Under the pieces are notes generated by a model. It made no database searches and was not told the origin of the DNA. It saw only the letters and a list, made by a program, of their open reading frames with translations. Shown here in pieces: positions 5,774-54,134 of a DNA stretch of 64,000 nucleotides. The stretch spans positions 18,227 through 82,226 of the forward strand of contig URSJ01000003.1 in NCBI GenBank assembly GCA_900550495.1, written 5' to 3'. Origin of the DNA: an uncultured Rickettsiales bacterium. GTDB taxonomy: Bacteria > Pseudomonadota > Alphaproteobacteria > Rs-D84. The position numbers were made by a program, and so were the translations under genes. Position 1 is the stretch's first letter. Each line of letters begins with the position of its first letter.

Positions 5774-8700
5774 ATGAGTTTTCTGAATAAATCTATCAGT
5801 TTTGTTGCTGTTTTGGCATGCACATCTGCGGCTTTTGCGGTTACCGCACGCCCCAGTGTGATTGGCAATGCAATGCGTCGCATGCCGACGATGACGACAT
5901 CGGCGGGTGTGATTTCTGGCACAACGACGACAACGACATCCAATTTATTGGCAAATGCTGAATGTATTGACGCATACACCTCGTGCCTGAAAGGGGCAGA
6001 TGCGTGTGGCCCGAATTTCGAAGAATGCACAACACGCGTTTTGTTCCACGGCAAAATGCCACAATGTCTGTCCACATTGGCCCAGTGCAACACATCTGGG
6101 ATAAACAGTTTGTTCGGAACGTCCAGCACGACCGCATTGTCCAACGTCGCAACCAAGAATACGTATGGCGAGGTTACAGATTACACATACCCAACCGATG
6201 GCAGTGTCTTGGGCCAGTTGATTATCGGTGCGGCAATCTCTAATAAATATGACACATCGACTTGTGTAAAACGTTACACGTCTTGTTTAAAAAAGGACAA
6301 CGTTTGCGGTGCGGATTTTGAATTGTGCACAACGAACGCCGAATTCAGAAAGCAAATGGTGTATTGCGATTCTACATTGGCGCGGTGCCAATCAGATGGC
6401 AAGATTGAATTATTTGGTTCAACAAACACATCTGTATCGCCCAGCGCGACCAGCCGTATTGGCGAAATGATTTCCGAAGGGGCGTCCTTGGCGGCAATAA
6501 ATGCCGTATCCACTTGCTACAAGGTTGTTGACCAATGTATATTGAATGCATGTGCAGAAAATCCATATAAATGCTATGAAAACGCGTCAACCCAGACTGC
6601 CCAGTTGGTAACTGACATCAATTCCGGTAACGCCGATTCAACTGCGGGCGCGGCAATCACTGTTTCAGACAGTGTCAGCACATCTGCGATTGCGGCATAC
6701 ATCAAGAACTCTTGTATGGATACCATTGGTTCCAACAAATATTGCTATGCAACATTCTTGGGTAATGGCGCAATGCCAACGGCGTCCCAATTAAAGGACG
6801 AAGACAACCAAGAAGAAGTTTATGACGAGGCATATTCGTCCCGAATGAACAGCGCGATGAAGGCCAAAATTGCCGACCTGGTCGATAAATTTGATACCAA
6901 GGCCAAGGCAAAGTGCACCGACACAATCAAAACATGCGCAATGCGTGTTTGCGGTGGCGGTAATGGCGCAGCATGTTATTCCCAGGTATTTGGTGCAACT
7001 GACAAATCAATCAACAACGCGGTCAGCTATCAGGAAATCAAGACTGGATGCGCAGCGGTTGTGAATACTGATTTGTTTTGTAAATATTCGGCAATGAATC
7101 CGAATGCAACAGGGTCATACTCTTATTCATATATAAACAATGATGCATTTGACACATTGTTCCCTGAATACCAGGCTGGTGCCGCCGACCCAATCGGCGT
7201 TATCGCGACATTGAACGCATCATTAGCGAATTCTTACAGTGATGCTGCTATCGCCCAGATGAAAAAACAGTGTCAGGCTGTCGCAACCAGTTGCGTAAAA
7301 TCCATGTGCGGCACCGATTATGTAAATTGTTACCGCAACAGAACAGATATTTATTCCAATCTGACCAGCACGGGCGACAGTTCATTTGATAAATCAATGA
7401 ACAAGGTTGGTGGTGTTCTGGATTACACAATTGTGTTAGGACTGTGTATGGATACGGTTAAAAACGCATCTGTATGCGAACAGCATTTGGCAATTGAACA
7501 AAATAAATTGAAAATCGCAGGTAAATCAAATACAGGTGCGTGGGGCGATGCCACCAGTGTGCGCAGTGGTTGGATTGATGCCGGCGGTGCAACCGCGGTA
7601 ACGGCGGATACTGAAACTGTTCAGGCATACGATGAAAACGGTAATGCGTTGTGTAGTGCCAAAAATGGCGACCAGGGCACATGTAACACTGTTGACGATA
7701 ATGGCAACGTGTTTGATACGCCGGTTATGATTTCTTACACAACATATCTGCAGTCCCAGGCGGCAACATCATTGTTCAAAGATTTAATCTATGACATTGA
7801 AAAAGAAGCCCAGGCGAAATATAACGCCAAGTTGACCAAGGAACAGAATATGTGCATGTCCAGTAATGCTGGCGGTGTATTGGGTAATCGTGATACAGGC
7901 AGCACATATATGTGGGCAAAACTGAAATCAAACAAAGTTCCAAAGAACTATGCGGTCAATGGATTAAAGCCCAGCCAGTTCGCGGCCAGCAATGATTTGT
8001 ATGGTTCGTTCTGCCGTGTGCGTGTGACCTTGCAATCTGATGACAAACGTATCCAGGATACAATTAGAAAAGGCACAGATTGGTCTGTTGCATACTTTGC
8101 CGTCGGTGACAGTTTTACCTGTGGCAGTTGGATACCCCGCGATGCATTGGAAAAGATTGCCAATGCGGTCGCAGATAATGCAACCGCAGACAAGGCCGCA
8201 TCTCAATCCAGAACGCGTGGTTGGTTGACGGCGTTGGGCGTGCTTGGGTTCGGTGCTGGTGGCGCAGTCTTGGGCAGCAATATTCAAAGTGGTAAAGCCT
8301 TGGGTAGTCTGACAGGATTGAACAGTAACAAGGATACAAACACAGAAAGATTTATCAAAATCTGTGAAGACAGAGCCAAAACTGCTATGACTTCGGGCAT
8401 CAGCAAAGATGCACAAATTACTGCGGCTAACGAGGCAATAGTCGCAGCCAGCAGATTGGATTTAGATACCACTGATGCAGCAAGTCGTGTTGACGCACTT
8501 AGTAAAAAAACAAGTAGTTACGATAAAGAATCTTCCGCTTTAAGCACGGCCATGAGAAATCTGTCTTTATCGTGCAGTAAAAAAGACAGCGACGATAACA
8601 ATGATAACGAAAAGAAAAACAATACATTGTTGGGCACATCCATTGGCACAGTTGTGAGCAGTGTTGCCGGTGGTATCTTGATTAATAAATTGGTCGGCGA

Positions 8701-8842
8701 TATCCAGAAAACTAGCCTGGATTCTGCACAAAAGGCTGCATACGAAGAATGGATGAATAACGTCGGTCGTCATATTTCCTGCTATGTCGGTGGTGACGAG
8801 GCCGGTGAATACGGTGACATAATTACCACCAGCATTGAATAA
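5774..8842 (+). CDS. Giant secreted Cys-rich (CX6C-module) protein with two C-terminal Gly-rich hydrophobic segments
   Basis: Signal peptide MSFLNKSISFVAVLACTSAAFA. Many C-x6-C-x3-5-C modules. A ~52-aa module is duplicated exactly 100 aa apart (nt 5963-6418). Hydrophobic segments at ~8219-8285 and ~8628-8699. Confidence 0.75.
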   Translation: MSFLNKSISFVAVLACTSAAFAVTARPSVIGNAMRRMPTMTTSAGVISGTTTTTTSNLLANAECIDAYTSCLKGADACGPNFEECTTRVLFHGKMPQCLSTLAQCNTSGINSLFGTSSTTALSNVATKNTYGEVTDYTYPTDGSVLGQLIIGAAISNKYDTSTCVKRYTSCLKKDNVCGADFELCTTNAEFRKQMVYCDSTLARCQSDGKIELFGSTNTSVSPSATSRIGEMISEGASLAAINAVSTCYKVVDQCILNACAENPYKCYENASTQTAQLVTDINSGNADSTAGAAITVSDSVSTSAIAAYIKNSCMDTIGSNKYCYATFLGNGAMPTASQLKDEDNQEEVYDEAYSSRMNSAMKAKIADLVDKFDTKAKAKCTDTIKTCAMRVCGGGNGAACYSQVFGATDKSINNAVSYQEIKTGCAAVVNTDLFCKYSAMNPNATGSYSYSYINNDAFDTLFPEYQAGAADPIGVIATLNASLANSYSDAAIAQMKKQCQAVATSCVKSMCGTDYVNCYRNRTDIYSNLTSTGDSSFDKSMNKVGGVLDYTIVLGLCMDTVKNASVCEQHLAIEQNKLKIAGKSNTGAWGDATSVRSGWIDAGGATAVTADTETVQAYDENGNALCSAKNGDQGTCNTVDDNGNVFDTPVMISYTTYLQSQAATSLFKDLIYDIEKEAQAKYNAKLTKEQNMCMSSNAGGVLGNRDTGSTYMWAKLKSNKVPKNYAVNGLKPSQFAASNDLYGSFCRVRVTLQSDDKRIQDTIRKGTDWSVAYFAVGDSFTCGSWIPRDALEKIANAVADNATADKAASQSRTRGWLTALGVLGFGAGGAVLGSNIQSGKALGSLTGLNSNKDTNTERFIKICEDRAKTAMTSGISKDAQITAANEAIVAASRLDLDTTDAASRVDALSKKTSSYDKESSALSTAMRNLSLSCSKKDSDDNNDNEKKNNTLLGTSIGTVVSSVAGGILINKLVGDIQKTSLDSAQKAAYEEWMNNVGRHISCYVGGDEAGEYGDIITTSIE

Positions 8843-8867
8843 AAAACGCCCCCCCGGGGCGTTTTTT
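8841..8867. terminator. Bidirectional rho-independent terminator
   Basis: AAAAAACGCCCC-CCC-GGGGCGTTTTTT. Confidence 0.8.
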
Positions 8868-8868
8868 A

Positions 8869-8950
8869 AGTGAGAGAGTGAGAGAGTGAGAAAGTGATAG
8901 AGTGATTCAGTGATTTAGTGATAGAGTGATAAAGTGACAGAGTGATATAG
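8869..8950 (+). repeat. Tandem octamer array (AGTGAnnn) x10
   Basis: Strict 8-bp period: agtgagag agtgagag agtgagaa agtgatag agtgattc agtgattt agtgatag agtgataa agtgacag agtgatat. Confidence 0.9.
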
Positions 8951-8964
8951 TTTTAGAATAAAAA

Positions 8965-9005
8965 ACTTAAAAACTTGTCATTCCTGCGCAGGCAGGAATA
9001 GGGTC
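8965..9005 (+). repeat. Left terminal inverted repeat of GIY-YIG cassette
   Basis: acttaaaaacttgtcattcctgcgcaggcaggaatagggtc is the reverse complement of 9419-9459 except for about one position. Confidence 0.85.
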
Positions 9006-9049
9006 TTTAAAACCTTGTGTTGTGGTGCACGTTTTTATATACTGACCTT

Positions 9050-9370
9050 ATGCCAGGACATAACTATTGGGTATATATACTGTTTGACAAACCGGCCGGT
9101 GCAACATACATTGGTGTGACCAATGACCTGAAACGTCGTGTCTTTGAACACAAGATGGAATTGATACCCGGTTTTACCCAAGATAAACATATCCATAACC
9201 TGGGCTACTTTGAAGAATACAAATACATAGACAAAGCGATTGCGCGTGAAAAGGCGTTAAAGAAATGGAAACGTGCATGGAAGTATAAACTGATAGAAAC
9301 GATGAATCCCCATTGGCACGATTTGGCGTCTGACATAGACGAATATATCGCACGTATACAGCACGACTAA
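9050..9370 (+). CDS. GIY-YIG nuclease superfamily protein (small stand-alone type)
   Basis: YWVYILFDKPAGATYIGVTNDLKRRVFEH provides the GIY..YIG..R..EH motifs, with ..REKALKKW.. downstream. Start set at ATG 9050. Confidence 0.8.
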   Translation: MPGHNYWVYILFDKPAGATYIGVTNDLKRRVFEHKMELIPGFTQDKHIHNLGYFEEYKYIDKAIAREKALKKWKRAWKYKLIETMNPHWHDLASDIDEYIARIQHD

Positions 9371-9418
9371 GGACGCCGCGATTGTGTGGGTATGGCTCGC
9401 GTTCGCTCGCACTGCACG

Positions 9419-9459
9419 GTCCCTATTCCTGCCTGCGCAGGAATGACAAGTTTTTAAGT
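9419..9459 (-). repeat. Right terminal inverted repeat of GIY-YIG cassette
   Basis: gtccctattcctgcctgcgcaggaatgacaagtttttaagt. Confidence 0.85.
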
Positions 9460-9475
9460 TTTCTGTTCTTAAACT

Positions 9476-9539
9476 AAATCACTATATCACTTTGTCACTT
9501 TCTCACTATATCACTCTCTCACTCTATCACTTTGTCACT
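9476..9539 (-). repeat. Tandem octamer array (nnnTCACT) x8, inverted copy of the AGTGAnnn array
   Basis: aaatcact atatcact ttgtcact ttctcact atatcact ctctcact ctatcact ttgtcact. Confidence 0.9.
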
Positions 9540-9563
9540 AAAAAAAACCGCCCTGGGCGGTTT
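9540..9563 (-). terminator. Rho-independent terminator of the 9564..10793 gene
   Basis: AAAAAAACCGCCC-T-GGGCGGTTTTT directly abuts the stop codon. Confidence 0.75.
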
Positions 9564-10793
9564 TTATGGACATTGAGCCAATTGATACATTACATTTTGG
9601 ACGTCGTTGTTTACTGATACCGTAATCTCGCGCCCCAGGCCGTCGGTGTATGTATAATTAAACTTGGCATCTTTGAATTCTGGGACGGCCGCGTATGCGT
9701 CATTAAACGGTGCCAGCATTGCATTAAACCACTGGCGTCCACGACACAGACAACCGTTGCGAACATCGGCCGCCACCGCCGCTGTTGATGTGTTTGGATA
9801 TTTCGTATCCAATTCATTGTCGGTCATCATCAGGCAACGTGTGCCAAATCCGTAAAAGTTTGCGTCATCTGCCATAAATTTATAGACCAGACCATCAGAC
9901 GCCCCTGCACGGCGCAATGAATACGCCATGCCATCAGTGCAACACGCACGTGCCGAATTCAGCAACATTTTATACCGGGCCAGCAACGGTGCCGCCGCCG
10001 GATTTGATGCGTCAATATTTGCGTCGCAACGCGCCGCGTCAACGAATTCCGCCATACGGACATCTTGTATTTTACGACTGCGTGGGGCAACAGCCTCGCG
10101 CATGATGGGTTTGCGGCGCCAAATATCGCATTCGGCATCAGTATCAAACGGGCAACCGTCACTGCGCCCAAATACAGTTTGAACTGTTTCAGTCATATCC
10201 TGGGCAGTGTATGTGGCGCGTGGTGCAACCGTGTTATTCGTCCACAGATTATCCTGGGGCCTTTGTGGCGTCAATAATTCTTCTATACGTGCGCGTGTTG
10301 CGATTGCGTCGTTCATATTCTGATTATACATCTGGACAGCAATATCGGGCGTGGCCTGGATATCTTGTTCATAAATTTCTGGTAACGGTTCCAAGAACCA
10401 GTCTGAAAAATCCTTGTCCCGATACGAAACAATGGAATCGTCCCAGATTGGCACGCCATCACGCCAATCCACGGTTTTATCATATCCGCGTGATTGGTAT
10501 TTTTCGTGTGTTCCGTCCCATAACGGTGCGCGATTATCCGGCGCAACCGGTTTCACAGATAACATCTTGACCTGGCGCATAGGAATTTGGTCGGCATAGA
10601 AGTATTCCACAGGCTGACTGTATTCAGCGATTGGCGTTTGGATTATTCCCAATTGGCGCGGTTCAGATACAGTAACCTGGCGCGTATCCATTTGTTCAAT
10701 ATCACAGCCAGTGCCGATGCAGTCTGACGCACGCGCTACATTTGTCCCGAATAAACATACCAGGGACGATAAAATTGCAATCTTGGTATTCAT
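9564..10793 (-). CDS. Secreted Cys-rich protein of unknown function
   Basis: Signal peptide MNTKIAILSSLVCLFGTNVARA, then SDCIGTGCD. Multiple Cys pairs (ACCTDG, CLCRG, terminal QCP). Start set at ATG 10793. Confidence 0.65.
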   Translation of the reverse strand: MNTKIAILSSLVCLFGTNVARASDCIGTGCDIEQMDTRQVTVSEPRQLGIIQTPIAEYSQPVEYFYADQIPMRQVKMLSVKPVAPDNRAPLWDGTHEKYQSRGYDKTVDWRDGVPIWDDSIVSYRDKDFSDWFLEPLPEIYEQDIQATPDIAVQMYNQNMNDAIATRARIEELLTPQRPQDNLWTNNTVAPRATYTAQDMTETVQTVFGRSDGCPFDTDAECDIWRRKPIMREAVAPRSRKIQDVRMAEFVDAARCDANIDASNPAAAPLLARYKMLLNSARACCTDGMAYSLRRAGASDGLVYKFMADDANFYGFGTRCLMMTDNELDTKYPNTSTAAVAADVRNGCLCRGRQWFNAMLAPFNDAYAAVPEFKDAKFNYTYTDGLGREITVSVNNDVQNVMYQLAQCP

Positions 10794-10800
10794 ACTCTGA

Positions 10801-10811
10801 ATAATATCACA
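10801..10811 (-). promoter_or_regulatory. Extended -10 element TGTGATATTAT, 7 nt upstream of ATG (leaderless candidate)
   Basis: Reverse complement of ataatatcaca. The -10 hexamer ends 7 nt before ATG 10793 and there is no Shine-Dalgarno. Confidence 0.45.
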
Positions 10812-10922
10812 AAAATGCACATGTTTGAACAGGTTTTTGCGGAAAAACGTTTTTTACTTGTTGTCGCGTTGTTGTTCCGCTAGTATTAGGAATGTAGTCA
10901 ATATATAACCCCAGGAGAAAAA

Positions 10923-20830: not shown

Positions 20831-23488
20831 ATGAGCAATAAATGGGTATATACTTTCGGCAATGGTGCTGCTGAAGGTCGCGCAGATATGCGTAATCTGT
20901 TGGGTGGCAAGGGCGCAAATTTGGCCGAAATGAATTTGGTCGGATTGCCGGTTCCTGCGGGTTTTACTGTGACAACCGACGTCTGCACGTATTACTATAA
21001 CAACAATGAAACATATCCAACCGATTTGATGGACCAGGTGCACGCAGGTATTGCACATATTGAATCTATTATGGGTAAAAAATTCGCAGATATGAATAAC
21101 CCTTTGCTGGTTTCTGTGCGATCTGGTGCGCGCGTTTCTATGCCTGGTATGATGGATACTGTTTTGAACCTGGGGTTGAACGATGAAACAGTCAAGGCAT
21201 TGGCGCGTCATTCGGGCAACGAACGTTTTGCATACGATTCATATCGCCGTTTTATCATGATGTTTTCTGATGTTGTGTTGGGGGCCGATATCAATCTGTT
21301 TGAACACAAACTGGAAGAAATGAAGGAATCCAAAGGTTACAAGGTTGACACCGAACTGACCGCGGAAGATTTGAAAGAATTGGTTGAACAGTTCAAACAA
21401 ATCGGTGTTCAAATTGGCAAAGTTTTTCCCCAAGACCCATGGGAACAGTTGCAACTGGGTATCGGTGCAGTGTTTGGCAGTTGGATGAGCAAAAAGGCCA
21501 TCACATATCGCAAACTGAACAATATTCCGGGCGATTGGGGAACCGCAGTCAACGTCCAGGCGATGGTGTTCGGTAATTCGGGCGAAGACAGCGCAACCGG
21601 TGTATGTTTCAGCCGTGACCCAGCCACCGGGGAAAACAAATATTATGGTGAATATTTAATTAATGCCCAGGGTGAAGACGTTGTCGCGGGTATCCGCACC
21701 CCACAACCGATGAGCAAAGATGATTCTGGTCGTCTGTCATTGGAAGAAGCAATGCCGGCTGTCTATAAAGAATTGTGCGATGTTCGTGAAAGACTGGAAC
21801 AGCATTACAAAGATATGCAGGATATGGAATTCACAATTGAACATGGCAAACTGTGGATGTTGCAATGCCGTAATGGTAAACGCACTGCGGCGGCCGCAGT
21901 TCGTATGGCGGTTGAAATGGTGAACGAAGGTCTGTTGACCAAAGAAGAAGCAATTTTGCGCGTTGGTGCAGACCAGTTAAATCATTTGTTACACCCGATG
22001 CTGGACCCTAAAGCCACACGTGATGTAATTGCGATTGGGTTGCCAGCGTCCCCTGGGGCCGCTGTTGGCCAGGCCGTATTTAATGCCGAAGATGCTGAAA
22101 AGTGGGCGTCCGAAGGTAAAAAGGTTATGCTGATTCGCGTTGAAACGTCGCCTGAAGATATCGCGGGTATGAACGCCGCCCAGGGGGTTATCACGGCGCG
22201 TGGTGGAATGACATCGCACGCGGCTGTGGTTGCACGTGGTATGGGGACACCATGCGTGTCGGGGTCACCGGACATAAAAATTGATTATACAACAAAAACA
22301 TTGACCACAACCGCCGGTGTTGTTATCCACGAAGGCGATTGGGTATCCATTGATGGCGCCCAGGGGCAGATTATTCGTGGCGCAGTTCCAACTGTATCTG
22401 TGGAATTGACCGGTAATTTCGGCACATTGATGCAGTGGGTTGATGAAATCAAAACACTGACGGTCAAGGCAAATGCTGAAACACCAAAGGATGCAAAACA
22501 GGCGCGTGATTTCGGTGCCGAAGGTATTGGTCTGGCACGAACAGAACATATGTTCTTTGACCCGTCCCGTATTCAAGATATGCGCGAAATGATTCTGGCC
22601 GATGACGAGGCAGGTCGTCGTGCAGCGTTGGCAAAATTGTTGCCATATCAGAAAGCGGACTTCATTGAATTGTTCAAGATTATGGACGGCCTGCCGGTCA
22701 CAGTTCGTCTGATTGATCCACCACTCCATGAATTCTTGCCACACACCGATGCAGAAGTCGCAGAATTGGCGGCGCATATTGGTAAAACTGTTGAGTTCGT
22801 AAAATCACGTCGCGAAGCATTGCGCGAAACTAATCCAATGTTGGGGCATCGTGGTTGCAGACTTGCGATTACATACCCAGAAATCTGTGAAATGCAGACA
22901 CGTGCGATTTTGTCGGCTGCATTGGAATGTCAGGCGGCAGGTGTTTCTGTTCGTCCAGAAATCGAAGTACCATTGGTTGGTTCGAAAAAAGAAGTAGATA
23001 TCGTCAAAGCCGTTATTGACGCGACTGCCCAAGAATTGTTTGCCGAAACGGGCAAGTCAATCGCATACACTGTTGGTTCAATGATTGAATTGCCGCGTGC
23101 GACAATATTGGCTGACGAAATCGCCGAAAGTTGCGAATTCTTTGAATTCGGAACAAACGATTTGACCCAGACGACATTAGGCATGTCCCGTGATGATACT
23201 GGTAAAATTTTGGACGAATATCGTGCACGCGGCGTGTATGTCGCAGACCCATTCGCATCTGTTGACCAGTTGGGCGTTGGACTGTTGATAAAGGACGCTG
23301 TTGCCAAGGCGCGTGCGACCAAGGGCGATAAAATCCACTTGGGCGTTTGCGGCGAACACGGTGGCGATCCAGATTCTATTGAATTCTTTCATAAAATTGG
23401 ATTTAATTCAGTATCGTGCAGTCCGTTCCGCGTGCCAATCGCACGTTTGGCGGCCGCACAAGCAGCGGTTAAATTCCCACGTAAATAA
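20831..23488 (+). CDS. ppdK: Pyruvate, phosphate dikinase
   Basis: MSNKWVYTFG..GGKGANLAEM.., phospho-His motif GGMTSHAAVVARGMG, C-terminal ..LGVCGEHGGDP... Start ATG 20831 follows the Shine-Dalgarno; the track extension from 20516 is rejected. Confidence 0.95.
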   Translation: MSNKWVYTFGNGAAEGRADMRNLLGGKGANLAEMNLVGLPVPAGFTVTTDVCTYYYNNNETYPTDLMDQVHAGIAHIESIMGKKFADMNNPLLVSVRSGARVSMPGMMDTVLNLGLNDETVKALARHSGNERFAYDSYRRFIMMFSDVVLGADINLFEHKLEEMKESKGYKVDTELTAEDLKELVEQFKQIGVQIGKVFPQDPWEQLQLGIGAVFGSWMSKKAITYRKLNNIPGDWGTAVNVQAMVFGNSGEDSATGVCFSRDPATGENKYYGEYLINAQGEDVVAGIRTPQPMSKDDSGRLSLEEAMPAVYKELCDVRERLEQHYKDMQDMEFTIEHGKLWMLQCRNGKRTAAAAVRMAVEMVNEGLLTKEEAILRVGADQLNHLLHPMLDPKATRDVIAIGLPASPGAAVGQAVFNAEDAEKWASEGKKVMLIRVETSPEDIAGMNAAQGVITARGGMTSHAAVVARGMGTPCVSGSPDIKIDYTTKTLTTTAGVVIHEGDWVSIDGAQGQIIRGAVPTVSVELTGNFGTLMQWVDEIKTLTVKANAETPKDAKQARDFGAEGIGLARTEHMFFDPSRIQDMREMILADDEAGRRAALAKLLPYQKADFIELFKIMDGLPVTVRLIDPPLHEFLPHTDAEVAELAAHIGKTVEFVKSRREALRETNPMLGHRGCRLAITYPEICEMQTRAILSAALECQAAGVSVRPEIEVPLVGSKKEVDIVKAVIDATAQELFAETGKSIAYTVGSMIELPRATILADEIAESCEFFEFGTNDLTQTTLGMSRDDTGKILDEYRARGVYVADPFASVDQLGVGLLIKDAVAKARATKGDKIHLGVCGEHGGDPDSIEFFHKIGFNSVSCSPFRVPIARLAAAQAAVKFPRK

Positions 23489-23515
23489 AAAATGCCCCAC
23501 CCGGGGCATTTTTTA
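23487..23515 (+). terminator. Rho-independent terminator after ppdK
   Basis: ATGCCCC-ACC-CGGGGCAT followed by a T6 tract. Confidence 0.8.
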
Positions 23516-23516
23516 A

Positions 23517-23544
23517 CAGAGAGCAGAGTACAGAGAGCAGAGAG
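23517..23544 (+). repeat. Tandem heptamer array (CAGAGnn) x4
   Basis: cagagag cagagta cagagag cagagag. Shorter versions follow the terminators at 27059 and 27938. Confidence 0.8.
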
Positions 23545-23596
23545 CAATGTTTGTGCTCGCGCGTCCGCTCGCGGCACCATACGTCTGGATCCTATG

Positions 23597-23700
23597 GTCA
23601 AGCCCCAGAATGACAAAGGCTGAATTATGTTTTTTATTTTACGGACATTGTTCAAATTTATGTCGCGGAATTTTTCTTAGGTGTCATTCTGGGGCTTGAC
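23597..23700. repeat. MITE-like unit: 19-bp perfect inverted repeats flanking a ~66-bp AT-rich core
   Basis: gtcaagccccagaatgaca (23597-23615) is the exact reverse complement of tgtcattctggggcttgac (23682-23700). Confidence 0.8.
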
Positions 23701-23761
23701 CCCAGAATCCAGGTGAAAAAAAGTGCGCCGGTGGCGCATTCAAAATTGTCATTCTAAAACT

Positions 23762-23793
23762 ATATCACTCTATCACTTTATCACTTACTCACT
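23762..23793 (-). repeat. Tandem octamer array (nnnTCACT) x4
   Basis: atatcact ctatcact ttatcact tactcact. Confidence 0.85.
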
Positions 23794-23794
23794 T

Positions 23795-23977
23795 TTAAAG
23801 TGCCAGGCTGTGGCGTGTTGCACTGATAAAACTAATCAATTGAAATGTATTTAAAGAATATCGCCCGATGGCCAGGCGTTCGTATTCGCCGGGTGTTAAA
23901 TCCATTGCATTGCACATAAATACAATGGACAATCCCATTTTTTGCCGAATTTGCTCAATCTGAACACCGATTTTCAT
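23795..23977 (-). CDS. Small XRE-type helix-turn-helix protein (tentative)
   Basis: MKIGVQIEQIRQKMGLS..MDLTPGEYERLAIGRYSLN fits an HTH_XRE pattern. Start set at the internal ATG (23977). Confidence 0.45.
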   Translation of the reverse strand: MKIGVQIEQIRQKMGLSIVFMCNAMDLTPGEYERLAIGRYSLNTFQLISFISATRHSLAL

Positions 23978-27029: not shown

Positions 27030-27030
27030 T

Positions 27031-27058
27031 AAAAAACGGGGCACGGCCCCGTTTTTTA
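27031..27058 (+). terminator. Rho-independent terminator
   Basis: ACGGGGC-AC-GGCCCCGT followed by a T6 tract. Confidence 0.8.
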
Positions 27059-27165
27059 TTAGAGAGCAGAGTGCGATGTATTTGCTCGCGCCACTCACAG
27101 CGTCATAGACCTGGATTTTGGGGACGTGGGCTTTTTCGTATGCGTCATCGGCGCACTGTTACTTT

Positions 27166-27197
27166 CTTGTCATTCCTGCCTGCGCAGGAATGACAAG
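27166..27197. repeat. 32-bp palindrome CTTGTCATTCCTGC-ctgc-GCAGGAATGACAAG (same core as the GIY-YIG cassette ends)
   Basis: 14-bp perfect arms with a 4-nt loop. Confidence 0.9.
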
Positions 27198-27254
27198 AAT
27201 AGAAAAAGTGACTTTGCACTATAAATGTCGTCTTGTTGTGGTTTTTCGTCAAAA

Positions 27255-27651: not shown

Positions 27652-27912
27652 ATGGCACACAAGAAAGCAGGTTCGGCGACCACTAATGGACGCGACTCGG
27701 CCGGACGCCGTTTAGGTGTTAAAAAATCCGGTGGCAGCCGTGTTATCCCAGGTAATATCATCATTCGCCAGCGTGGCACATCTGTGCACCCGGGCTTGAA
27801 TGTTGGCATGGGCAAGGATCACACATTGTTCGCAAAAATTGCGGGCATTGTGAAGTTCAAAAAAGGTTTTGGTGACCGCAAGACTGTTTCCGTTGAACCT
27901 GAATCCAAATAA
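27652..27912 (+). CDS. rpmA: 50S ribosomal protein L27
   Basis: [42 protein letters not shown]. Confidence 0.95.
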
Positions 27913-27937
27913 AAAACGCGCCATCGGCGCGTTTTTT
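27911..27937 (+). terminator. Rho-independent terminator after rpmA
   Basis: ACGCGCC-ATC-GGCGCGT followed by a T6 tract. Confidence 0.8.
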
Positions 27938-27948
27938 ATTAGAGCGCA

Positions 27949-27994
27949 GATAGTAATGAATATGTCCGCAACTGCGGACATATTCATTACTATC
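27949..27994. repeat. 46-bp perfect palindrome (22-bp arms)
   Basis: gatagtaatgaatatgtccgca-ac-tgcggacatattcattactatc. Confidence 0.95.
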
Positions 27995-28029
27995 TTATGT
28001 TAACTTTGAACTTTTATGTAGCGGGGACT

Positions 28030-52422: not shown

Positions 52423-53148
52423 ATGTCTGATAAACTGGTTGTGAAACGTGTTTTACAGGCATACCAATGTGACCGATATGGTTACGTGCGCCCGTTGATT
52501 CTGATGAACGAATTACAGGGGTGCGCCGACACGCATGCCGAAATGTTGGGCTGTGGTCGCACGTTCTTGACCGAACAGAATATGGCGTGGGTGGTGACGC
52601 ATTACCTGGTTGATATCCTGGAATTGCCACGCGAAGGCGAAGAATTAACATTTTCAACATGGCCCTCGATGAAAGAATTATTGCGTGCCACGCGTGATTT
52701 TGAAATTCGTGGCGCAGACGGTCGTCTGATGGTGCGTGCAACGTCCCAGTGGGTCTTGATTGATATGGCAACGCGTCGCCCGGTGCGATTAGATGCCGCG
52801 GTGCCAGCGTTGGTGCAAAGTGGCGCACGTGCCTGGGACAGAATATTTTGTAAGTTCCCGGATTTTGTGGCAGAGAAAACGCACGTATTCAAATGCCGGT
52901 TTGACGATATTGATGTGAACCAGCATATAAATAATGCGGTCTATGCCGTATGGGCAACAGAAAGTGTTGGATATGTATTTCGCAATGCGCACAAATTACG
53001 TTGCATTGAGTTGAGCTTTAAAAAAGAAATTAATCCTGACACGCCCCAGGTTGAAATTGACGTTGCGATTGACGGCGATGTTTCGCGTCATCGTATTCGC
53101 ACAGGTGACACAGAACATGCATCGGTCATATGCACCTGGTCAGAATAA
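52423..53148 (+). CDS. Acyl-ACP thioesterase-family protein (double hotdog)
   Basis: ..QCDRYGYVRPLILMNELQ..MAWVVTHY.. and a second half ..FDDIDVNQHINNAVY.. typical of the family. Confidence 0.6.
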   Translation: MSDKLVVKRVLQAYQCDRYGYVRPLILMNELQGCADTHAEMLGCGRTFLTEQNMAWVVTHYLVDILELPREGEELTFSTWPSMKELLRATRDFEIRGADGRLMVRATSQWVLIDMATRRPVRLDAAVPALVQSGARAWDRIFCKFPDFVAEKTHVFKCRFDDIDVNQHINNAVYAVWATESVGYVFRNAHKLRCIELSFKKEINPDTPQVEIDVAIDGDVSRHRIRTGDTEHASVICTWSE

Positions 53149-53175
53149 AAAACCGCCCCACCGGGCGGTTTTTTT
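53147..53175 (+). terminator. Rho-independent terminator
   Basis: CCGCCC-CAC-CGGGCGG followed by a T7 tract. Confidence 0.8.
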
Positions 53176-53263
53176 AGTGACAAAGTGAGAAAGTGACAGA
53201 GTGAGAAAGTGACAGAGTGAGAGAGTGACAAAGTGAGAGAGTGACAAAGTGACAGAGTGATAA
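53176..53263 (+). repeat. Tandem octamer array (AGTGAnnn) x11
   Basis: agtgacaa agtgagaa agtgacag agtgagaa agtgacag agtgagag agtgacaa agtgagag agtgacaa agtgacag agtgataa. Confidence 0.9.
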
Positions 53264-53281
53264 ATTTTTTATTCTAAAACT

Positions 53282-53321
53282 AAATCACTAAATCACTATA
53301 TCACTGTATCACTTCATCACT
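53282..53321 (-). repeat. Tandem octamer array (nnnTCACT) x5, inverted partner of 53176-53263
   Basis: aaatcact aaatcact atatcact gtatcact tcatcact. Separated from the left array by only 18 bp (attttttattctaaaact). Confidence 0.9.
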
Positions 53322-53347
53322 AAAAACCACCCCGTTGGGGTGGTTTT
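53322..53347 (-). terminator. Rho-independent terminator of the minus-strand two-gene operon
   Basis: AAAAACCACCCC-GTT-GGGGTGGTTTT. Confidence 0.75.
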
Positions 53348-54134
53348 ATTGTTGTTTTTGGGGTTGTTGCTGTTTTGATGTCAGATTACTGGTCGCGTTT
53401 CGTATTGATATGTTCAATTTATTCAAGCATTGCTGAAATATCGTGCGATTGTTGATTTGCTTGACTTGGGTGCAGTCAACTGTTTTGCCATCAATTTTGA
53501 CCTGTTGCAAATCGCCTTTGTTTATTGTTGCCCCAGCTGCATTATCAACCACGACCTGGACATCGTTTGCCAATTGTTTGCGTAATTCGGCCGAAATATT
53601 CGTGCCACCATTTGACATGTTGTAAATCAGATTATAATTACTGCGCAGGCATGTAAATACTTCGGATGTGGTGCTCATATTGTTGCAATTTTGGGTTCCT
53701 GCCAGGTAATTGTTTTTATCGCCACTGATATTCCCCATGCCGCGCACGCTAGATGATGTGCCACTATTGGACGAATCGGCACCTGCTGCTTGGAGTTTTG
53801 TGGTCAAAACGGCCTTTTCCAGTTGGGTTTTAAAACGGCGAAGTGTTGCGTCCAGATAGTCATACTGTTTTTTCATCTGTTGCGTCATGACCGTCGTTTT
53901 TAATGCGACAACATCGCGCATTAACTGTTTGTCAGATTCATTTGTTGGGTTTGATACGTCGCCAATGTTATAGACGTGCGTGCTGCACAATGCCAGTTCC
54001 GCGACAATGCGATCGTTTTTTTCGTCGTCGCAACCATCAGATGCAGCAAACGCCGGCACCACAAAAGCGGCGATAACGGTTGTCACGCATAGAAAATTTT
54101 TTATCCTGTCAAAACTAGTTTGTTTTGTTTGCAT
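53346..54134 (-). CDS. Secreted protein of unknown function (second gene of the Cys-rich operon)
   Basis: Signal peptide ..VIAAFVVPAFA, then ASDGCDD. Central coiled-coil-like KKQYDYLDATLRRFKTQLEK. Gln-rich tail. Start ATG 54134 overlaps the upstream gene end by 20 nt. Confidence 0.6.
   Translation of the reverse strand: MQTKQTSFDRIKNFLCVTTVIAAFVVPAFAASDGCDDEKNDRIVAELALCSTHVYNIGDVSNPTNESDKQLMRDVVALKTTVMTQQMKKQYDYLDATLRRFKTQLEKAVLTTKLQAAGADSSNSGTSSSVRGMGNISGDKNNYLAGTQNCNNMSTTSEVFTCLRSNYNLIYNMSNGGTNISAELRKQLANDVQVVVDNAAGATINKGDLQQVKIDGKTVDCTQVKQINNRTIFQQCLNKLNISIRNATSNLTSKQQQPQKQQ

What the first reader, a model, noticed from the sequence alone, without database searches (positions are those of the whole stretch)
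8841..9567. Large composite palindrome between convergent genes: terminator / AGTGAnnn octamer array / 41-bp inverted repeat / GIY-YIG gene / inverted repeat / inverted array / terminator
A strict 8-bp-period array (AGTGAnnn x10, 8869-8950) and its inverted counterpart (nnnTCACT x8, 9476-9539) flank a 525-bp cassette. The cassette ends are 41-bp near-perfect inverted repeats containing the palindrome ATTCCTGC..GCAGGAAT, and it encodes only a 106-aa GIY-YIG nuclease. A second locus (53176-53321) has the same paired arrays with just 18 bp between them, which looks like an unoccupied site. Decayed pieces of the cassette ends and of its GC-rich 3' flank (GCTCGCG..CGCTCGC) occur at 23553-23575, 27083-27095 and 27166-27197. 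This looks like a GIY-YIG selfish element that targets, or co-evolves with, terminator-proximal octamer arrays.
Basis: partly seen in the sequence, partly recalled or inferred. Interest (0 to 1): 0.65.

Follow-up and report, generated by a model that had tools for sequence, protein, structure and literature searches.

The report
Invertible hairpin-bracketed GIY-YIG nuclease cassette
Between two converging genes of an uncultured gut alphaproteobacterium sits a small nuclease gene bracketed by mirror-image DNA hairpins and by hypervariable 8-base repeat arrays; the gene-plus-hairpin unit recurs across many bacterial phyla and resembles the known REP/RAYT repeat systems, but is built around a different enzyme.

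Summary
Window 8840-9567 reads terminator, AGTGAnAn x10, linker, hairpin, 106-aa GIY-YIG gene, hairpin, linker, inverted array x8, terminator. The arms are 119 nt and 88% complementary.

- **True partner of the nuclease:** it is the 20-nt hairpin TTGTC-ATTCCTGC-GCAG-GCAGGAAT, not the octamer array. In 79 distant metagenomic relatives the same hairpin family sits, inverted, within about 50 bp of both gene ends. It is the hairpin family of Neisseria dRS3/REPIN.
- **Octamer arrays:** they are an independent, hypervariable satellite of 4-21 units. They occur in many phyla without any GIY-YIG gene. At locus 2, other strains carry other array types instead.
- **Behaviour among strains:** the cassette lies in both orientations, occupies at least two loci per genome and shares alleles between them. 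It leaves decayed remnants and is under strong purifying selection (dN/dS about 0.06). At locus 1 it was present in every assembly examined.

Best reading: a REPtron-like, Slx1/UPF0213-type nuclease cassette nested in a NIME-like intergenic mosaic. That the nuclease acts on the hairpins is inferred, not shown. I found no description of this in the searched literature.

The parts
8840..8868 (+). Rho-independent terminator of the upstream 1025-aa gene (stop at 8842); a bidirectional type with an A-run and a T-run
   Evidence: 13-nt perfect inverted repeat with a 3-nt loop (I18). The sequence is locus-specific: it differs at the HU locus.
8869..8948 (+). Left octamer array, AGTGAnAn x10; hypervariable in unit number between strains
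   Evidence: TRF period 8, 10.4 copies. Pattern hits against 0 expected. 4-13 units at this locus in other strains. Positions 1-5 are fixed and positions 6 and 8 carry about 1.6 bits of entropy over 241 units, with the caveat that units were ascertained on the core.
8949..8979 (+). Left linker (AGTTTTAGAATAAAAAACTTAAAAA) plus outer flank CTTGTC; with the hairpin it forms an outward-facing terminator on the - strand
   Evidence: Mirror of 9445-9475. Scored as terminator-like on the - strand, 9000-8979 plus ACAAGTTTTT. Two linker variants swap sides in some flipped strains.
8980..9003 (+). Left REP-like hairpin ATTCCTGC-GCAG-GCAGGAAT plus inner flank AGGG
   Evidence: 8-bp stem and 4-nt loop. 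DNA fold -7.9 kcal/mol, z -4.1. Same family as the hairpins flanking 79 distant homologues and as Neisseria dRS3/REPIN.
9004..9049 (+). 5' region of the cassette; putative promoter with TATATA about 11 nt before the ATG (near-leaderless); not verified
   Evidence: Read from the sequence. Conserved in L002 and L003. The consensus scan found no strong sigma-70 site here.
9050..9370 (+). GIY-YIG nuclease gene, 106 aa, stand-alone Slx1/UPF0213-type
   Evidence: Pfam PF01541 E 2e-14. Invariant Y9, Y20, R30, H34, E67 and N86 in 30 homologues. PDB relatives 1zg2, 1ywl and UvrC by sequence. AF2 pLDDT 90.8; Foldseek hits to UPF0213 and Slx1. dN/dS 0.05-0.08.
9371..9424 (+). 3' untranslated part with the GC-rich motif GCTCGCGTTCGCTCGC (9395-9410) and inner flank CCCT (9421-9424)
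   Evidence: Conserved in type-1 and type-2 cassettes. Remnants at 23553-23575 and 27083-27095.
9425..9450 (+). Right REP-like hairpin ATTCCTGC-CTGC-GCAGGAAT plus outer flank GACAAG; likely terminator of the GIY-YIG transcript
   Evidence: -8.2 kcal/mol. Terminator-like, 9424-9445 plus ACAAGTTTTT.
9451..9475 (+). Right linker (TTTTTAAGTTTTCTGTTCTTAAACTA), the imperfect mirror of the left linker
9476..9539 (-). Right octamer array, nnnTCACT x8 (AGTGAnAn on the - strand)
   Evidence: 6-11 units in other strains.
9541..9567 (-). Terminator of the converging 418-aa gene (9564-10820, -)
   Evidence: I20.
53147..53347 (.). Locus 2: terminator, AGTGAnAn x11 (53176-53263), a centre of about 21 bp holding one linker copy, TCACT x5 (53285-53321), terminator; no cassette
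   Evidence: It folds as a ladder of 5-6-bp helices with 3x3 loops, -43 kcal/mol, z -8.9. In other strains there are 11-21 units, or completely different alleles including a type-2 GIY cassette.
23486..23795 (.). Degenerate type-2 cassette locus, in order: terminator; AGAGCAG-type array (23508-23546); 3'-end remnant GCTCGCG..CGCTCGC (23553-23575); decayed hairpin (about 23590-23613); intact hairpin TGTCATTCTGGGG-CTTGA-CCCCAGAATCCAG (23682-23712); GTGCGCC hairpin; linker; TCACT x4-5 (23759-23795). The gene is missing.
   Evidence: The same module order, with the gene present, is seen in L233 and L222.
27030..27198 (.). Degenerate cassette locus: terminator, AGAGAGCAGAG, 3'-end remnant (27083-27095), decayed hairpin, and a solo full hairpin CTTGTCATTCCTGC-CTGC-GCAGGAATGACAAG (27167-27198) in which the two outer flanks are joined
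   Evidence: DNA fold -17.8 kcal/mol, z -10.6.

Best explanation
The composite has three nested layers at a converging-gene junction of an uncultured gut alphaproteobacterium close to Candidatus Enterousia.

**Layer 1.** The two host genes' own terminators.

**Layer 2.** A pair of inverted, hypervariable AGTGAnAn octamer satellites. These are a general feature of terminator-proximal intergenic DNA in this lineage. They occur independently of any nuclease gene here and in many other phyla.

**Layer 3.** A cassette of about 500 bp (8974-9450). It is a stand-alone Slx1/UPF0213-type GIY-YIG nuclease gene bracketed by inverted copies of a REP-like hairpin: TTGTC-ATTCCTGC-GNRN-GCAGGAAT, with the outer flank GTC/GAC and the inner flank AGGG/CCCT. 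These hairpins also look like outward-facing terminators that would insulate the cassette.

**Shown.**
- The gene-plus-two-hairpins unit is conserved across very distant bacteria.
- The protein is under strong purifying selection.
- The whole inner segment flips between strains, with different crossover points.
- Copies at different loci of one genome share alleles.
- Alternative alleles join at the hairpin or in the arrays.
- Gene-less remnants and solo hairpins with joined outer flanks exist.

**Inferred mechanism.** The nuclease is structure-selective, like Slx1. It nicks or cuts at the extruded hairpin or cruciform of its own flanks and of solo hairpins. Repair from another cassette copy, using the hairpin, linker and array as homology, then gives gene conversion between copies, occasional copying into hairpin-bearing intergenic sites, and inversion or deletion between the palindromic repeats.

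This would be a GIY-YIG counterpart of a REPtron (REP plus RAYT), living inside a NIME-like mosaic. It is kept mostly vertically, as RAYTs are. The arrays act as extra inverted homology and as recombination joints, not as the nuclease's target.
For: **Anatomy of the composite.**

**Hairpin-gene association in 79 metagenomic relatives (47-58% identity).**
- Perfect hairpins pile up 0-50 bp upstream (37) and 0-50 bp downstream (65) of the ORF, against single digits per equal bin elsewhere.
- 18 of 61 loci have an upstream/downstream inverted repeat above the 95th percentile of mismatched controls, and that repeat is almost always this hairpin.
- Polarity is consistent: TTGTC-[hairpin, loop GAAA/GAAG/GCAG]-CCA ... 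gene ... TGG-[hairpin, loop TTTC/CTTC/CTGC]-GACAA.
- GTCATTCC occurs 173 times in 274 kb, against 6-12 for two of the three control octamers.

**Same hairpin family as a known REP.** Neisseria REPIN/dRS3 is ATTCCCGCGCAGGCGGGAATC. An N. gonorrhoeae homologue of the gene sits among dRS3 copies.

**The enzyme.**
- Pfam GIY-YIG match.
- Residues at the catalytic positions are invariant.
- Relatives by sequence and fold are UPF0213, Slx1 and HIGLE. Slx1-family assignment follows PMC1564403.
- dN/dS is 0.05-0.08.

**Dynamics.**
- Both orientations occur at locus 1 (5 and 5 displayed assemblies), with at least two classes of crossover point. Both orientations also occur at the HU locus.
- Two copies lie on one contig.
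- The HWH and DWR alleles are shared across loci.
- Allele series exist at locus 2 and the HU locus, with junctions in the hairpin (loop flipped, GCAG against CTGC) and in the AGAGCAG array.
- Remnants occur at 23.5 and 27.1 kb.
- 5 of 9 assemblies break at the cassette.
- Locus 1 and locus 2 are synteny breakpoints relative to the sister species.

**Independence of the arrays.**
Against: - No cleavage data exist. That the nuclease recognises the hairpin is inference from co-location and from the Slx1-like fold. The Foldseek E-values are modest (1e-3 to 0.1).
- No clean empty/occupied allele pair was found. Locus 1 was occupied in every assembly seen, so active mobility is not demonstrated. 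RecA-type recombination between 120-150-bp inverted repeats could explain the flips without the nuclease.
- Only 3 type-1 and 2 type-2 hairpins lie in 64 kb, and all are in cassette-related loci. A dispersed REP population, the hallmark of REP/RAYT systems, is therefore not shown.
- In Neisseria the same hairpin is attributed to a RAYT. A RAYT elsewhere in this genome was not excluded.
- The two hairpins of one cassette can differ in type or in stem position 6, so there is no tight one-enzyme-one-hairpin covariation.
- The role proposed for the arrays is weakly supported.
Confidence: 0.55

Rival explanations
1. The cassette is a GIY-YIG homing element whose recognition site or co-evolving partner is the terminator-proximal AGTGAnnn array, and locus 2 (53176-53321) is its unoccupied target.
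For: In the window, L001, L002, L131-L140, L221 and L368-L371 the type-1 cassette always lies between two AGTGA arrays. Locus 2 has the same arrays with only a short centre. One strain has a GIY-YIG gene at locus 2.
Against: - 120 array loci in other genomes (850 kb) have no GIY-YIG gene and no hairpin enrichment.
- The strain with a GIY-YIG gene at locus 2 (L233) has no AGTGA arrays there.
- L222/L223 and all distant relatives have cassettes without such arrays.
- Allele junctions map to the hairpin.
- Array unit number changes from 4 to 21 with no cassette involved.
Confidence: 0.07
2. A domesticated housekeeping nuclease. The gene is a vertically inherited Slx1-like repair enzyme. The flanking hairpins are merely its insulating terminators or regulatory sites. 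The flips, allele sharing and remnants are generic consequences of homologous recombination between inverted and dispersed repeats.
For: - Strong purifying selection.
- Present at locus 1 in all assemblies, and next to the same neighbour in the sister species.
- Orthologous position in two environmental contigs, L150 and L151.
- The hairpins score as terminators facing outward.
- The literature treats the family as repair-related and mostly vertical (PMC1564403).
Against: - A generic terminator would not keep the same 8-bp stem sequence, loop class and flank polarity across phyla.
- In most relatives the hairpin is followed by CCAG or GACA, not a T-run.
- There are two or more copies per genome, a paralogue swap at the same sites, and gene-less remnants that keep the hairpins.
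- Tandem arrays of half hairpins lie next to cassettes in several lineages.
Confidence: 0.22
3. The hairpins are ordinary REP/REPIN elements mobilised by a RAYT (a Y1 transposase) encoded elsewhere. The GIY-YIG gene is a passenger or preferred landing pad, not their enzyme.
For: The identical hairpin family in Neisseria is assigned to a Group-2 RAYT (bioRxiv 10.1101/2021.07.10.451892). In N. gonorrhoeae the GIY-YIG homologue lies in a dRS3-rich region with the hairpin flanks in the opposite polarity.
Against: - The inverted, polarity-consistent bracketing within about 50 bp of both ends in most of 79 unrelated contigs is hard to obtain by chance landing.
- No RAYT is seen in the 64-kb window or in the fetched flanks. 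This is a weak argument, because it rests only on the gene lists, and no systematic search was run.
Confidence: 0.12
4. The octamer arrays are functional sites in their own right. They could be a binding platform for a DNA- or RNA-binding protein reading AGTGA every 8 nt, or an extension of a bidirectional terminator hairpin. The cassette merely sits in their centre.
For: - The core is invariant while positions 6 and 8 vary.
- Inverted pairs recur in several phyla in intergenic DNA.
- In some acidobacterial pairs the arms pair fully if G-U pairs are allowed (by inspection).
- The arrays always abut terminators in this lineage.
Against: - Unit number varies 4-21 between strains, and the whole array can be replaced by 7- or 14-bp repeats of other sequence at the same locus.
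- No control scan could show that AGTGA is commoner than other cores, because the scans saturate.
- The entropy estimate is biased by how units were found.
Confidence: 0.2

Closest known systems
REP/REPIN-RAYT systems (REPtrons) of Proteobacteria
   Same: - A single small enzyme gene is bracketed by inverted copies of a short palindromic hairpin with a conserved asymmetric flank.
- The hairpin family here is the same sequence family as the Neisseria REPIN.
- The gene is kept at a fixed locus, in few copies, under purifying selection.
   Different: - The enzyme is a GIY-YIG hydrolytic nuclease of 106 aa, not an HUH/Y1 transposase, so any mobility must go through host repair rather than a covalent ssDNA intermediate.
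- A large dispersed hairpin population is not shown in this genome.
Neisseria intergenic mosaic elements (NIMEs: RS modules bounded by dRS3, ATTCCC-N8-GGGAAT)
   Same: - Intergenic mosaics lie downstream of genes.
- They are built of exchangeable modules joined at 20-bp ATTCC..GGAAT palindromes.
- They are hotspots of rearrangement and allele replacement.
   Different: - The organism is an alphaproteobacterium, not Neisseria.
- One module is a nuclease gene.
- The outer arms are short tandem arrays (AGTGAnAn, AGAGCAG, AGAGCATAGATWAT) in inverted pairs.
Slx1 and prokaryotic stand-alone Slx1-like/UPF0213 GIY-YIG proteins (PDB 1zg2, 1ywl; Slx1 4xm5, 6seh, 7cq4)
   Same: Closest by sequence and predicted fold. 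It is the minimal GIY-YIG domain without accessory domains, and residues at the catalytic positions are conserved.
   Different: - Slx1 works with Slx4 on branched DNA in repair.
- The bacterial proteins have no assigned function and were regarded as vertically inherited repair factors.
- The hairpin bracketing and locus polymorphism found here are, to my knowledge, not part of their description.
Free-standing GIY-YIG homing endonuclease genes (phage T4 Seg proteins, I-TevI relatives)
   Same: A GIY-YIG gene sits in an intergenic position, with presence/replacement polymorphism and signs of gene conversion between copies.
   Different: - There is no C-terminal DNA-binding domain (NUMOD or HTH).
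- The NCBIfam group I intron endonuclease model scores far below its cut-off (19.8 against 56 bits).
- There is no clean empty allele.
- The element is chromosomal and long-term resident.
Invertible DNA segments bounded by inverted repeats, and bacterial VNTR satellites
   Same: The inner segment is found in both orientations in a population. The arrays change unit number rapidly between strains.
   Different: - There is no site-specific recombinase gene.
- Crossover points vary, which fits homologous or break-induced recombination.
- The arrays keep a fixed 5-nt core with variable spacers, unlike simple slippage products.

Membership tests
Stand-alone Slx1-like / UPF0213 GIY-YIG nucleases | GIY-YIG catalytic domain covering essentially the whole protein, with no accessory domain | tested here: met
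   Pfam PF01541 matches residues 5-80 of 106, E 2e-14, and is the only family hit. The AF2 model is a single compact domain, pLDDT 90.8.
Stand-alone Slx1-like / UPF0213 GIY-YIG nucleases | Conserved catalytic positions (two Tyr, Arg, His, Glu, plus or minus Asn) | tested here: met
   Y9, Y20, R30, H34, E67 and N86 are invariant in 30 homologues. Assigning them catalytic roles rests on knowledge of I-TevI and UvrC. PMC1564403 says the Slx1 cluster lacks the C-terminal Asn, so the invariant N86 is a small discrepancy.
Stand-alone Slx1-like / UPF0213 GIY-YIG nucleases | Closest solved structures are UPF0213 and Slx1 | tested here: met
   By sequence: 1zg2 at 7.5e-7, 1ywl at 4e-5, UvrC at 4e-3. 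Foldseek ranks 1-13 are UPF0213, Slx1 and At-HIGLE, with probabilities 0.91-1.0 but E-values only 1e-3 to 0.16.
Stand-alone Slx1-like / UPF0213 GIY-YIG nucleases | Structure-selective nuclease activity | not testable with these tools
   Needs biochemistry.
REP-RAYT system (REPtron / REPIN) | Enzyme gene flanked by inverted copies of the cognate REP hairpin | tested here: met
   Seen in the window. It holds generally in 79 relatives.
REP-RAYT system (REPtron / REPIN) | Enzyme is an IS200/IS605-like HUH Y1 transposase | tested here: not met
   The only domain is GIY-YIG. It is therefore not a member, only an analogue.
REP-RAYT system (REPtron / REPIN) | Tens to hundreds of dispersed REP/REPIN copies in the same genome | tested here: inconclusive
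   Only 64 kb is available. It holds 3 type-1 and 2 type-2 hairpins, all within cassette-related loci. Solo hairpins do occur away from the gene in metagenomic contigs: 22 of 102 distant hairpins are of the ATTCC type.
REP-RAYT system (REPtron / REPIN) | Vertical persistence at a fixed locus in few copies | tested here: met
   Locus 1 is occupied in all assemblies seen, and the cassette sits next to the same neighbour in the sister species.
Free-standing GIY-YIG homing endonuclease | Catalytic domain linked to a sequence-specific DNA-binding domain | tested here: not met
   106 aa with the catalytic domain only. TIGR01453 scores 19.8 bits against a cut-off of 56.
Free-standing GIY-YIG homing endonuclease | Empty allele that differs from the occupied one only by the element (the homing site) | tested here: inconclusive
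   No empty locus 1 was found. Locus 2 and the HU locus show replacement alleles rather than a clean insertion. The solo hairpin with joined outer flanks (27167-27198, also L227) is compatible with an empty site.
NIME-like intergenic mosaic (dRS3-bounded modules) | Modules bounded by 20-bp ATTCC-N-GGAAT palindromes and exchanged between alleles | tested here: met
   Hairpins of this type are in the window. The allele series has a junction in the hairpin. The sequence family is shared with dRS3.
Insertion sequence / MITE | Terminal inverted repeats plus a target-site duplication, and a transposase of a known family | tested here: not met
   Inverted ends are present. There is no consistent flanking direct repeat beyond the palindromic hairpin itself, and no known transposase domain.

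The most novel reading that the evidence does not exclude
The very large family of stand-alone UPF0213/Slx1-like GIY-YIG proteins has about 9,500 clusters at 50% identity with E<=1e-10. These proteins may be the cognate enzymes of a pan-bacterial REP/dRS3-type hairpin family. That would make a second, mechanistically different nuclease-repeat symbiosis alongside REPIN-RAYT. Its cleavage-and-repair cycles at hairpins would generate the intergenic mosaics, half-hairpin arrays, inversions and synteny breaks seen at gene ends.
Probability: 0.3. Interest if true: 0.8.

Novelty: new variant of a known kind. Interest (0 to 1): 0.62.

Why it matters
**A testable function for an uncharacterised family.** Small [quoted passage not shown] genes are annotated by the thousand and have solved structures (1zg2, 1ywl) but no function. 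Showing that they travel as a unit with a specific, phylum-spanning hairpin gives a concrete substrate to test.

**A link to well-known repeats.** The hairpin is the one known as dRS3/REPIN in Neisseria. This connects the nuclease family to the origin and dynamics of REP-like repeats and intergenic mosaics.

**Consequences for this gut alphaproteobacterium.** The element marks sites of strain-level inversion, allele replacement and synteny breaks. It also breaks short-read assemblies: 5 of 9 contigs end there. That matters for strain tracking and MAG quality.

**An open side question.** The octamer arrays, with a fixed 5-nt core at 8-nt period, often occur in inverted pairs and in many phyla. 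Their role remains unexplained.

Tried and rejected
1. **Count-based control for the AGTGA core.** I planned to compare its arrays with arrays of scrambled pentamers. No claim is made that AGTGA is special among octamer cores.
2. **Empty allele of the HU locus.** The detour through the search for homologous proteins showed the locus occupied in all strains, by either the type-1 or the type-2 cassette.
3. **Empty allele of locus 1.** I searched through the 286-aa and pseudouridine-synthase neighbours and found none.
4. **Target-site duplication.** Flanking direct repeats in 59 relatives are almost all the palindromic hairpin units themselves. One locus (L172) duplicates 34 bp of the host gene end. 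There is no general rule.
5. **Are the AGTGA arrays shrunken half-hairpin arrays (AATGACAA against AGTGACAA)?** Rejected. Their orientation relative to the adjacent hairpin half is opposite to that of the true half-hairpin arrays in L357, L142, L210, L217 and Planktothrix.
6. **One nuclease subtype, one hairpin type?** Rejected. The type-2 gene has CTTGA-loop hairpins on both sides in L222, but a type-1 hairpin downstream in L233. In the relatives the two flanks often differ.
7. **Rfam.** No family matched in the region at gathering threshold.
8. **Literature.** Searches for GIY-YIG with REP, RAYT, MITE, YhbQ, COG2827, and for the hairpin sequences themselves, found no description of the association. 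The library lacks most subscription journals.

Full report

Yes. Reading 8500-9900 shows, in order:
- the stop of a 1025-aa ORF at 8842;
- a terminator hairpin at 8840-8868;
- ten AGTGAnnn units at 8869-8948;
- a linker;
- the hairpin ATTCCTGC-GCAG-GCAGGAAT at 8980-8999;
- a 106-aa ORF at 9050-9370;
- a GC-rich stretch;
- the mirrored hairpin at 9425-9444;
- the mirrored linker;
- eight nnnTCACT units at 9476-9539;
- a second terminator at 9541-9567, which overlaps the end of a converging 418-aa ORF.

Tandem Repeats Finder reports the period-8 arrays. The three-unit pattern occurs 28 times against 0 in shuffles, confined to three loci. The ORF is a full-length Pfam GIY-YIG domain. The second locus (53147-53347) and the decayed pieces at 23.5 and 27.1 kb are as described.

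**2. Organism and relatives.**

The window carries an rRNA operon. Its proteins match uncultured gut Alphaproteobacteria close to Candidatus Enterousia. Many metagenome assemblies of the same species and a sister species could be fetched. They supplied the strain-level comparisons below.

**3. The cassette is a unit defined by its hairpins, not by the arrays.**

A second copy lies on the same 628-kb contig as a locus-1 copy. It sits between an HU/IHF gene and an 825-aa gene, with different terminators but the same arrays, linkers, hairpins and gene.

Eighty metagenomic loci encoding homologues at 47-58% identity were fetched, and the family ORF was located in 79 of them.
- Perfect hairpins with a stem of 8 or more are concentrated within 50 bp upstream (37) and 50 bp downstream (65) of the ORF.
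- 18 of 61 loci have an upstream/downstream inverted repeat beyond the 95th percentile of mismatched controls.
- The repeat is nearly always TTGTC-ATTCCnGC-(GAAA/GAAG/GCAG)-GCnGGAAT-CCA upstream and its reverse complement downstream. A second type has a CTTGA loop.
- GTCATTCC occurs 173 times in these 274 kb, against 6-12 for two of the three control octamers. In 850 kb of AGTGA-array loci from other genomes it is at background (23).

The window's two hairpin types, ATTCCTGC-GCAG-GCAGGAAT and ATTCTGGGG-CTTGA-CCCCAGAAT at 23686-23708, are both members of this pan-bacterial pair.

A full-text search for the hairpin sequence returned Neisseria papers. ATTCCCGCGCAGGCGGGAATC is the master REPIN/dRS3 sequence there and is attributed to a Group-2 RAYT. 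An N. gonorrhoeae chromosome filed among the plasmids holds an unannotated 47%-identical homologue of the GIY-YIG gene in the middle of dRS3 copies.

**4. The enzyme.**

- Thirty homologues keep Y9, Y20, R30, H34, E67 and N86 invariant.
- By sequence, the nearest solved structures are the UPF0213 proteins 1zg2 and 1ywl, then UvrC.
- A confident AF2 model (pLDDT 90.8) retrieves UPF0213, Slx1 (including Slx1 with 5'-flap DNA) and the Slx1-lineage Holliday-junction resolvase At-HIGLE. Foldseek E-values are modest.
- PMC1564403 classifies these bacterial stand-alone proteins as the Slx1 family. It regards them as minimal, mostly vertically inherited and presumably repair-related.
- The gene is under strong purifying selection, with dN/dS 0.05-0.08 and dS up to about 2 against the sister species.
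- The family is large: 9,485 clusters at 50% identity with E<=1e-10.

**5. Dynamics among strains.**

*Inversion.* With an identical protein, ten assemblies show the cassette at locus 1 in both orientations, five each among the displayed places.
- Printing the flanks shows that in L131, L132 and L134 the two linker variants have swapped sides, so the crossover was in or beyond the arrays.
- In L136 the linkers have not swapped, so the crossover was in the hairpin region.
- L133 is mixed.
- The inversions are therefore independent events with different crossover points.

Both orientations also occur at the HU locus.

*Array length.* Arrays range from 4 to 13 units at locus 1 and from 11 to 21 at locus 2.

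*Allele sharing.* The HWH and DWR variants are shared between the two loci. Paralogues are no more divergent than orthologues, which indicates gene conversion.

*Alleles at the HU locus.* Some strains carry a 102-aa paralogue (49% identity) bracketed by CTTGA-loop hairpins, next to a remnant of the type-1 3' end.

*Alleles at locus 2.* Strains with an identical thioesterase protein show four alleles:
- A, the window's arrangement;
- B, a 120-bp palindrome made of a different 14-bp repeat around a GTGCGCC hairpin, with no AGTGA units and no left terminator;
- C, allele B with a nested insertion that includes three AGTGA units and a solo ATTCCTGC hairpin with both outer flanks;
- D, the type-2 GIY-YIG cassette.

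C and D share both flanks. They diverge on the left inside an AGAGCAG array and on the right inside the ATTCCTGC hairpin, whose loop is flipped (GCAG against CTGC).

*Solo hairpins.* Because the hairpin is palindromic, its two copies around a cassette are also direct repeats. A deletion between them would give exactly the solo outer/outer hairpins seen at window 27167-27198 (loop CTGC) and in allele C (loop GCAG).

*Persistence.* Locus 1 was never found empty. Five of nine assemblies end at the cassette.

*Synteny.* Relative to the sister species, the neighbours of locus 1 and locus 2 are recombined, and the cassette is inverted relative to the 418-aa orthologue.

**6. The arrays.**

Hits were in Acidobacteriota, Bacteroidota, Cyanobacteriota, Planctomycetota, Betaproteobacteria and others. 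About eleven are inverted pairs around short centres. None of these 120 loci encodes a GIY-YIG protein of this family.

In this lineage the arrays abut terminators. They keep AGTGA invariant with an nAn spacer, with the caveat that units were ascertained on the core. As single strands they fold into ladders of 5-6-bp helices with 3x3 loops. About half of the window's terminators are followed by such arrays or by related purine-rich repeats (AGAGAGCAG, AGAGCGCAGATAG).

In other lineages the position outside the cassette hairpin is occupied by tandem arrays of half hairpins. Examples are GGGAATGACAAAATACGCCTGC x4 in L357 and TGTCATTCTGAG plus spacer x3 on a Planktothrix plasmid. Tandem duplication next to cassette ends is therefore a recurrent theme, but the AGTGA units are not half hairpins, because their orientation is opposite.

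**7. Mechanism.**

*Shown.*
- A conserved nuclease-plus-two-inverted-hairpins unit.
- Outward-facing terminator-like hairpins.
- Flipping, allele sharing, replacement at hairpin and array joints, remnants, and long-term residence.

*Inferred.*
- The Slx1-like nuclease acts on the extruded hairpin or cruciform.
- The breaks are repaired from other copies.
- This produces conversion, occasional copying into hairpin-bearing sites, deletions to solo hairpins, and inversions.

The system thus works like a REPtron or REPIN-RAYT inside a NIME-like mosaic. It is not a member of that family, because the defining Y1 transposase is absent.

*Rivals retained.*
- A domesticated repair nuclease whose hairpins are only insulators.
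- REPs mobilised by an unseen RAYT.
- Arrays as independent functional sites.

**8. Novelty and limits.**

Searches of the held literature found no description of bacterial stand-alone GIY-YIG genes bracketed by REP-like hairpins. The library omits most subscription journals, so prior description cannot be excluded.

I rate the finding a new variant of a known kind, namely REP-associated enzyme systems and intergenic mosaics. Interest is moderately high. The main gap is biochemical: nothing here shows what the nuclease cuts.

Noticed in passing
L035, L036, L048, L054, L099 (Acidobacteriota); L043 (Bacteroidales); L061, L063 (Cytophagales/Hymenobacter); L058 (Alcaligenaceae); L012; L119: AGTGAnnn arrays occur as inverted pairs (4-9 units, a centre of 15-150 bp, then the inverted array) in intergenic DNA of unrelated phyla. 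They have no GIY-YIG gene or REP-like hairpin nearby. In L035 and L054 the arms pair completely if G-U pairs are allowed, which hints at an RNA-level structure.
   Followed up: partly
L365 (N. gonorrhoeae NZ_CP119140.1, about 1882275-1882553; a 2.17-Mb chromosome filed as a plasmid): An unannotated 93-aa GIY-YIG ORF, 47% identical to the window's protein, is embedded among dRS3 hairpins. The hairpin polarity around it is opposite to the canonical cassette: GAC faces the gene upstream and GTC follows directly after the stop.
   Followed up: partly
L366 (Planktothrix agardhii plasmid NZ_LR882964.1, 18847-19131 and flanks); also L357, L142, L210, L217: GIY-YIG genes are flanked by tandem arrays (3-4 copies, period about 19-32) of half hairpins such as TGTCATTCTGAG or GGGAATGACAAAATAC. 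The Planktothrix copy lies between an MmeI-type RM gene and DISARM drmA.
   Followed up: partly
L133, right hairpin of the locus-1 cassette: A 40-bp insertion that is itself a palindrome (CCCACAAAATC-TGAC-GATTTTGTGGG) sits inside the loop of the ATTCCTGC hairpin. The hairpin loop can therefore receive nested small elements.
   Followed up: no
L372-L376 (assemblies carrying the window's pseudouridine synthase gene): Five of nine assemblies end inside or just before the GIY-YIG cassette. This is consistent with a multi-copy repeat or mixed orientation within samples.
   Followed up: no
window 53346-54170 and 54115-55893 (-): The gene right of locus 2 is split into two overlapping ORFs. It is called as 262 + 593 aa in all strains of this species, but is a single 786-799-aa gene in the sister species (L003-L006). 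This may be a fixed frameshift, a pseudogene or programmed frameshifting.
   Followed up: no
window 27908-27995: A terminator at 27908-27940 is followed directly by a 21-bp-stem palindrome (27948-27995) that begins TTAGAGCGCAGATAG. This is another member of the purine-rich post-terminator repeat family.
   Followed up: no
window 8842/9564 and 53148/53346, compared with L003: Loci 1 and 2 are synteny breakpoints. In the sister species the 418-aa orthologue converges on the orthologue of the gene right of locus 2, with the cassette between them and inverted. The 1025-aa orthologue faces an LRR_5 gene that is absent from the window.
   Followed up: partly
L172 (metagenome contig Ga0184636_1001784): A 34-bp direct repeat of the upstream host gene's 3' end, including its stop, lies on both sides of a GIY-YIG cassette. 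It looks as if the insertion had duplicated or replaced the gene end.
   Followed up: no
P0311: A 2519-aa predicted protein has 14 partial matches to the GIY-YIG profile (positions 36-72). It may be a read-through of a repeat array or a genuine repeat protein.
   Followed up: no
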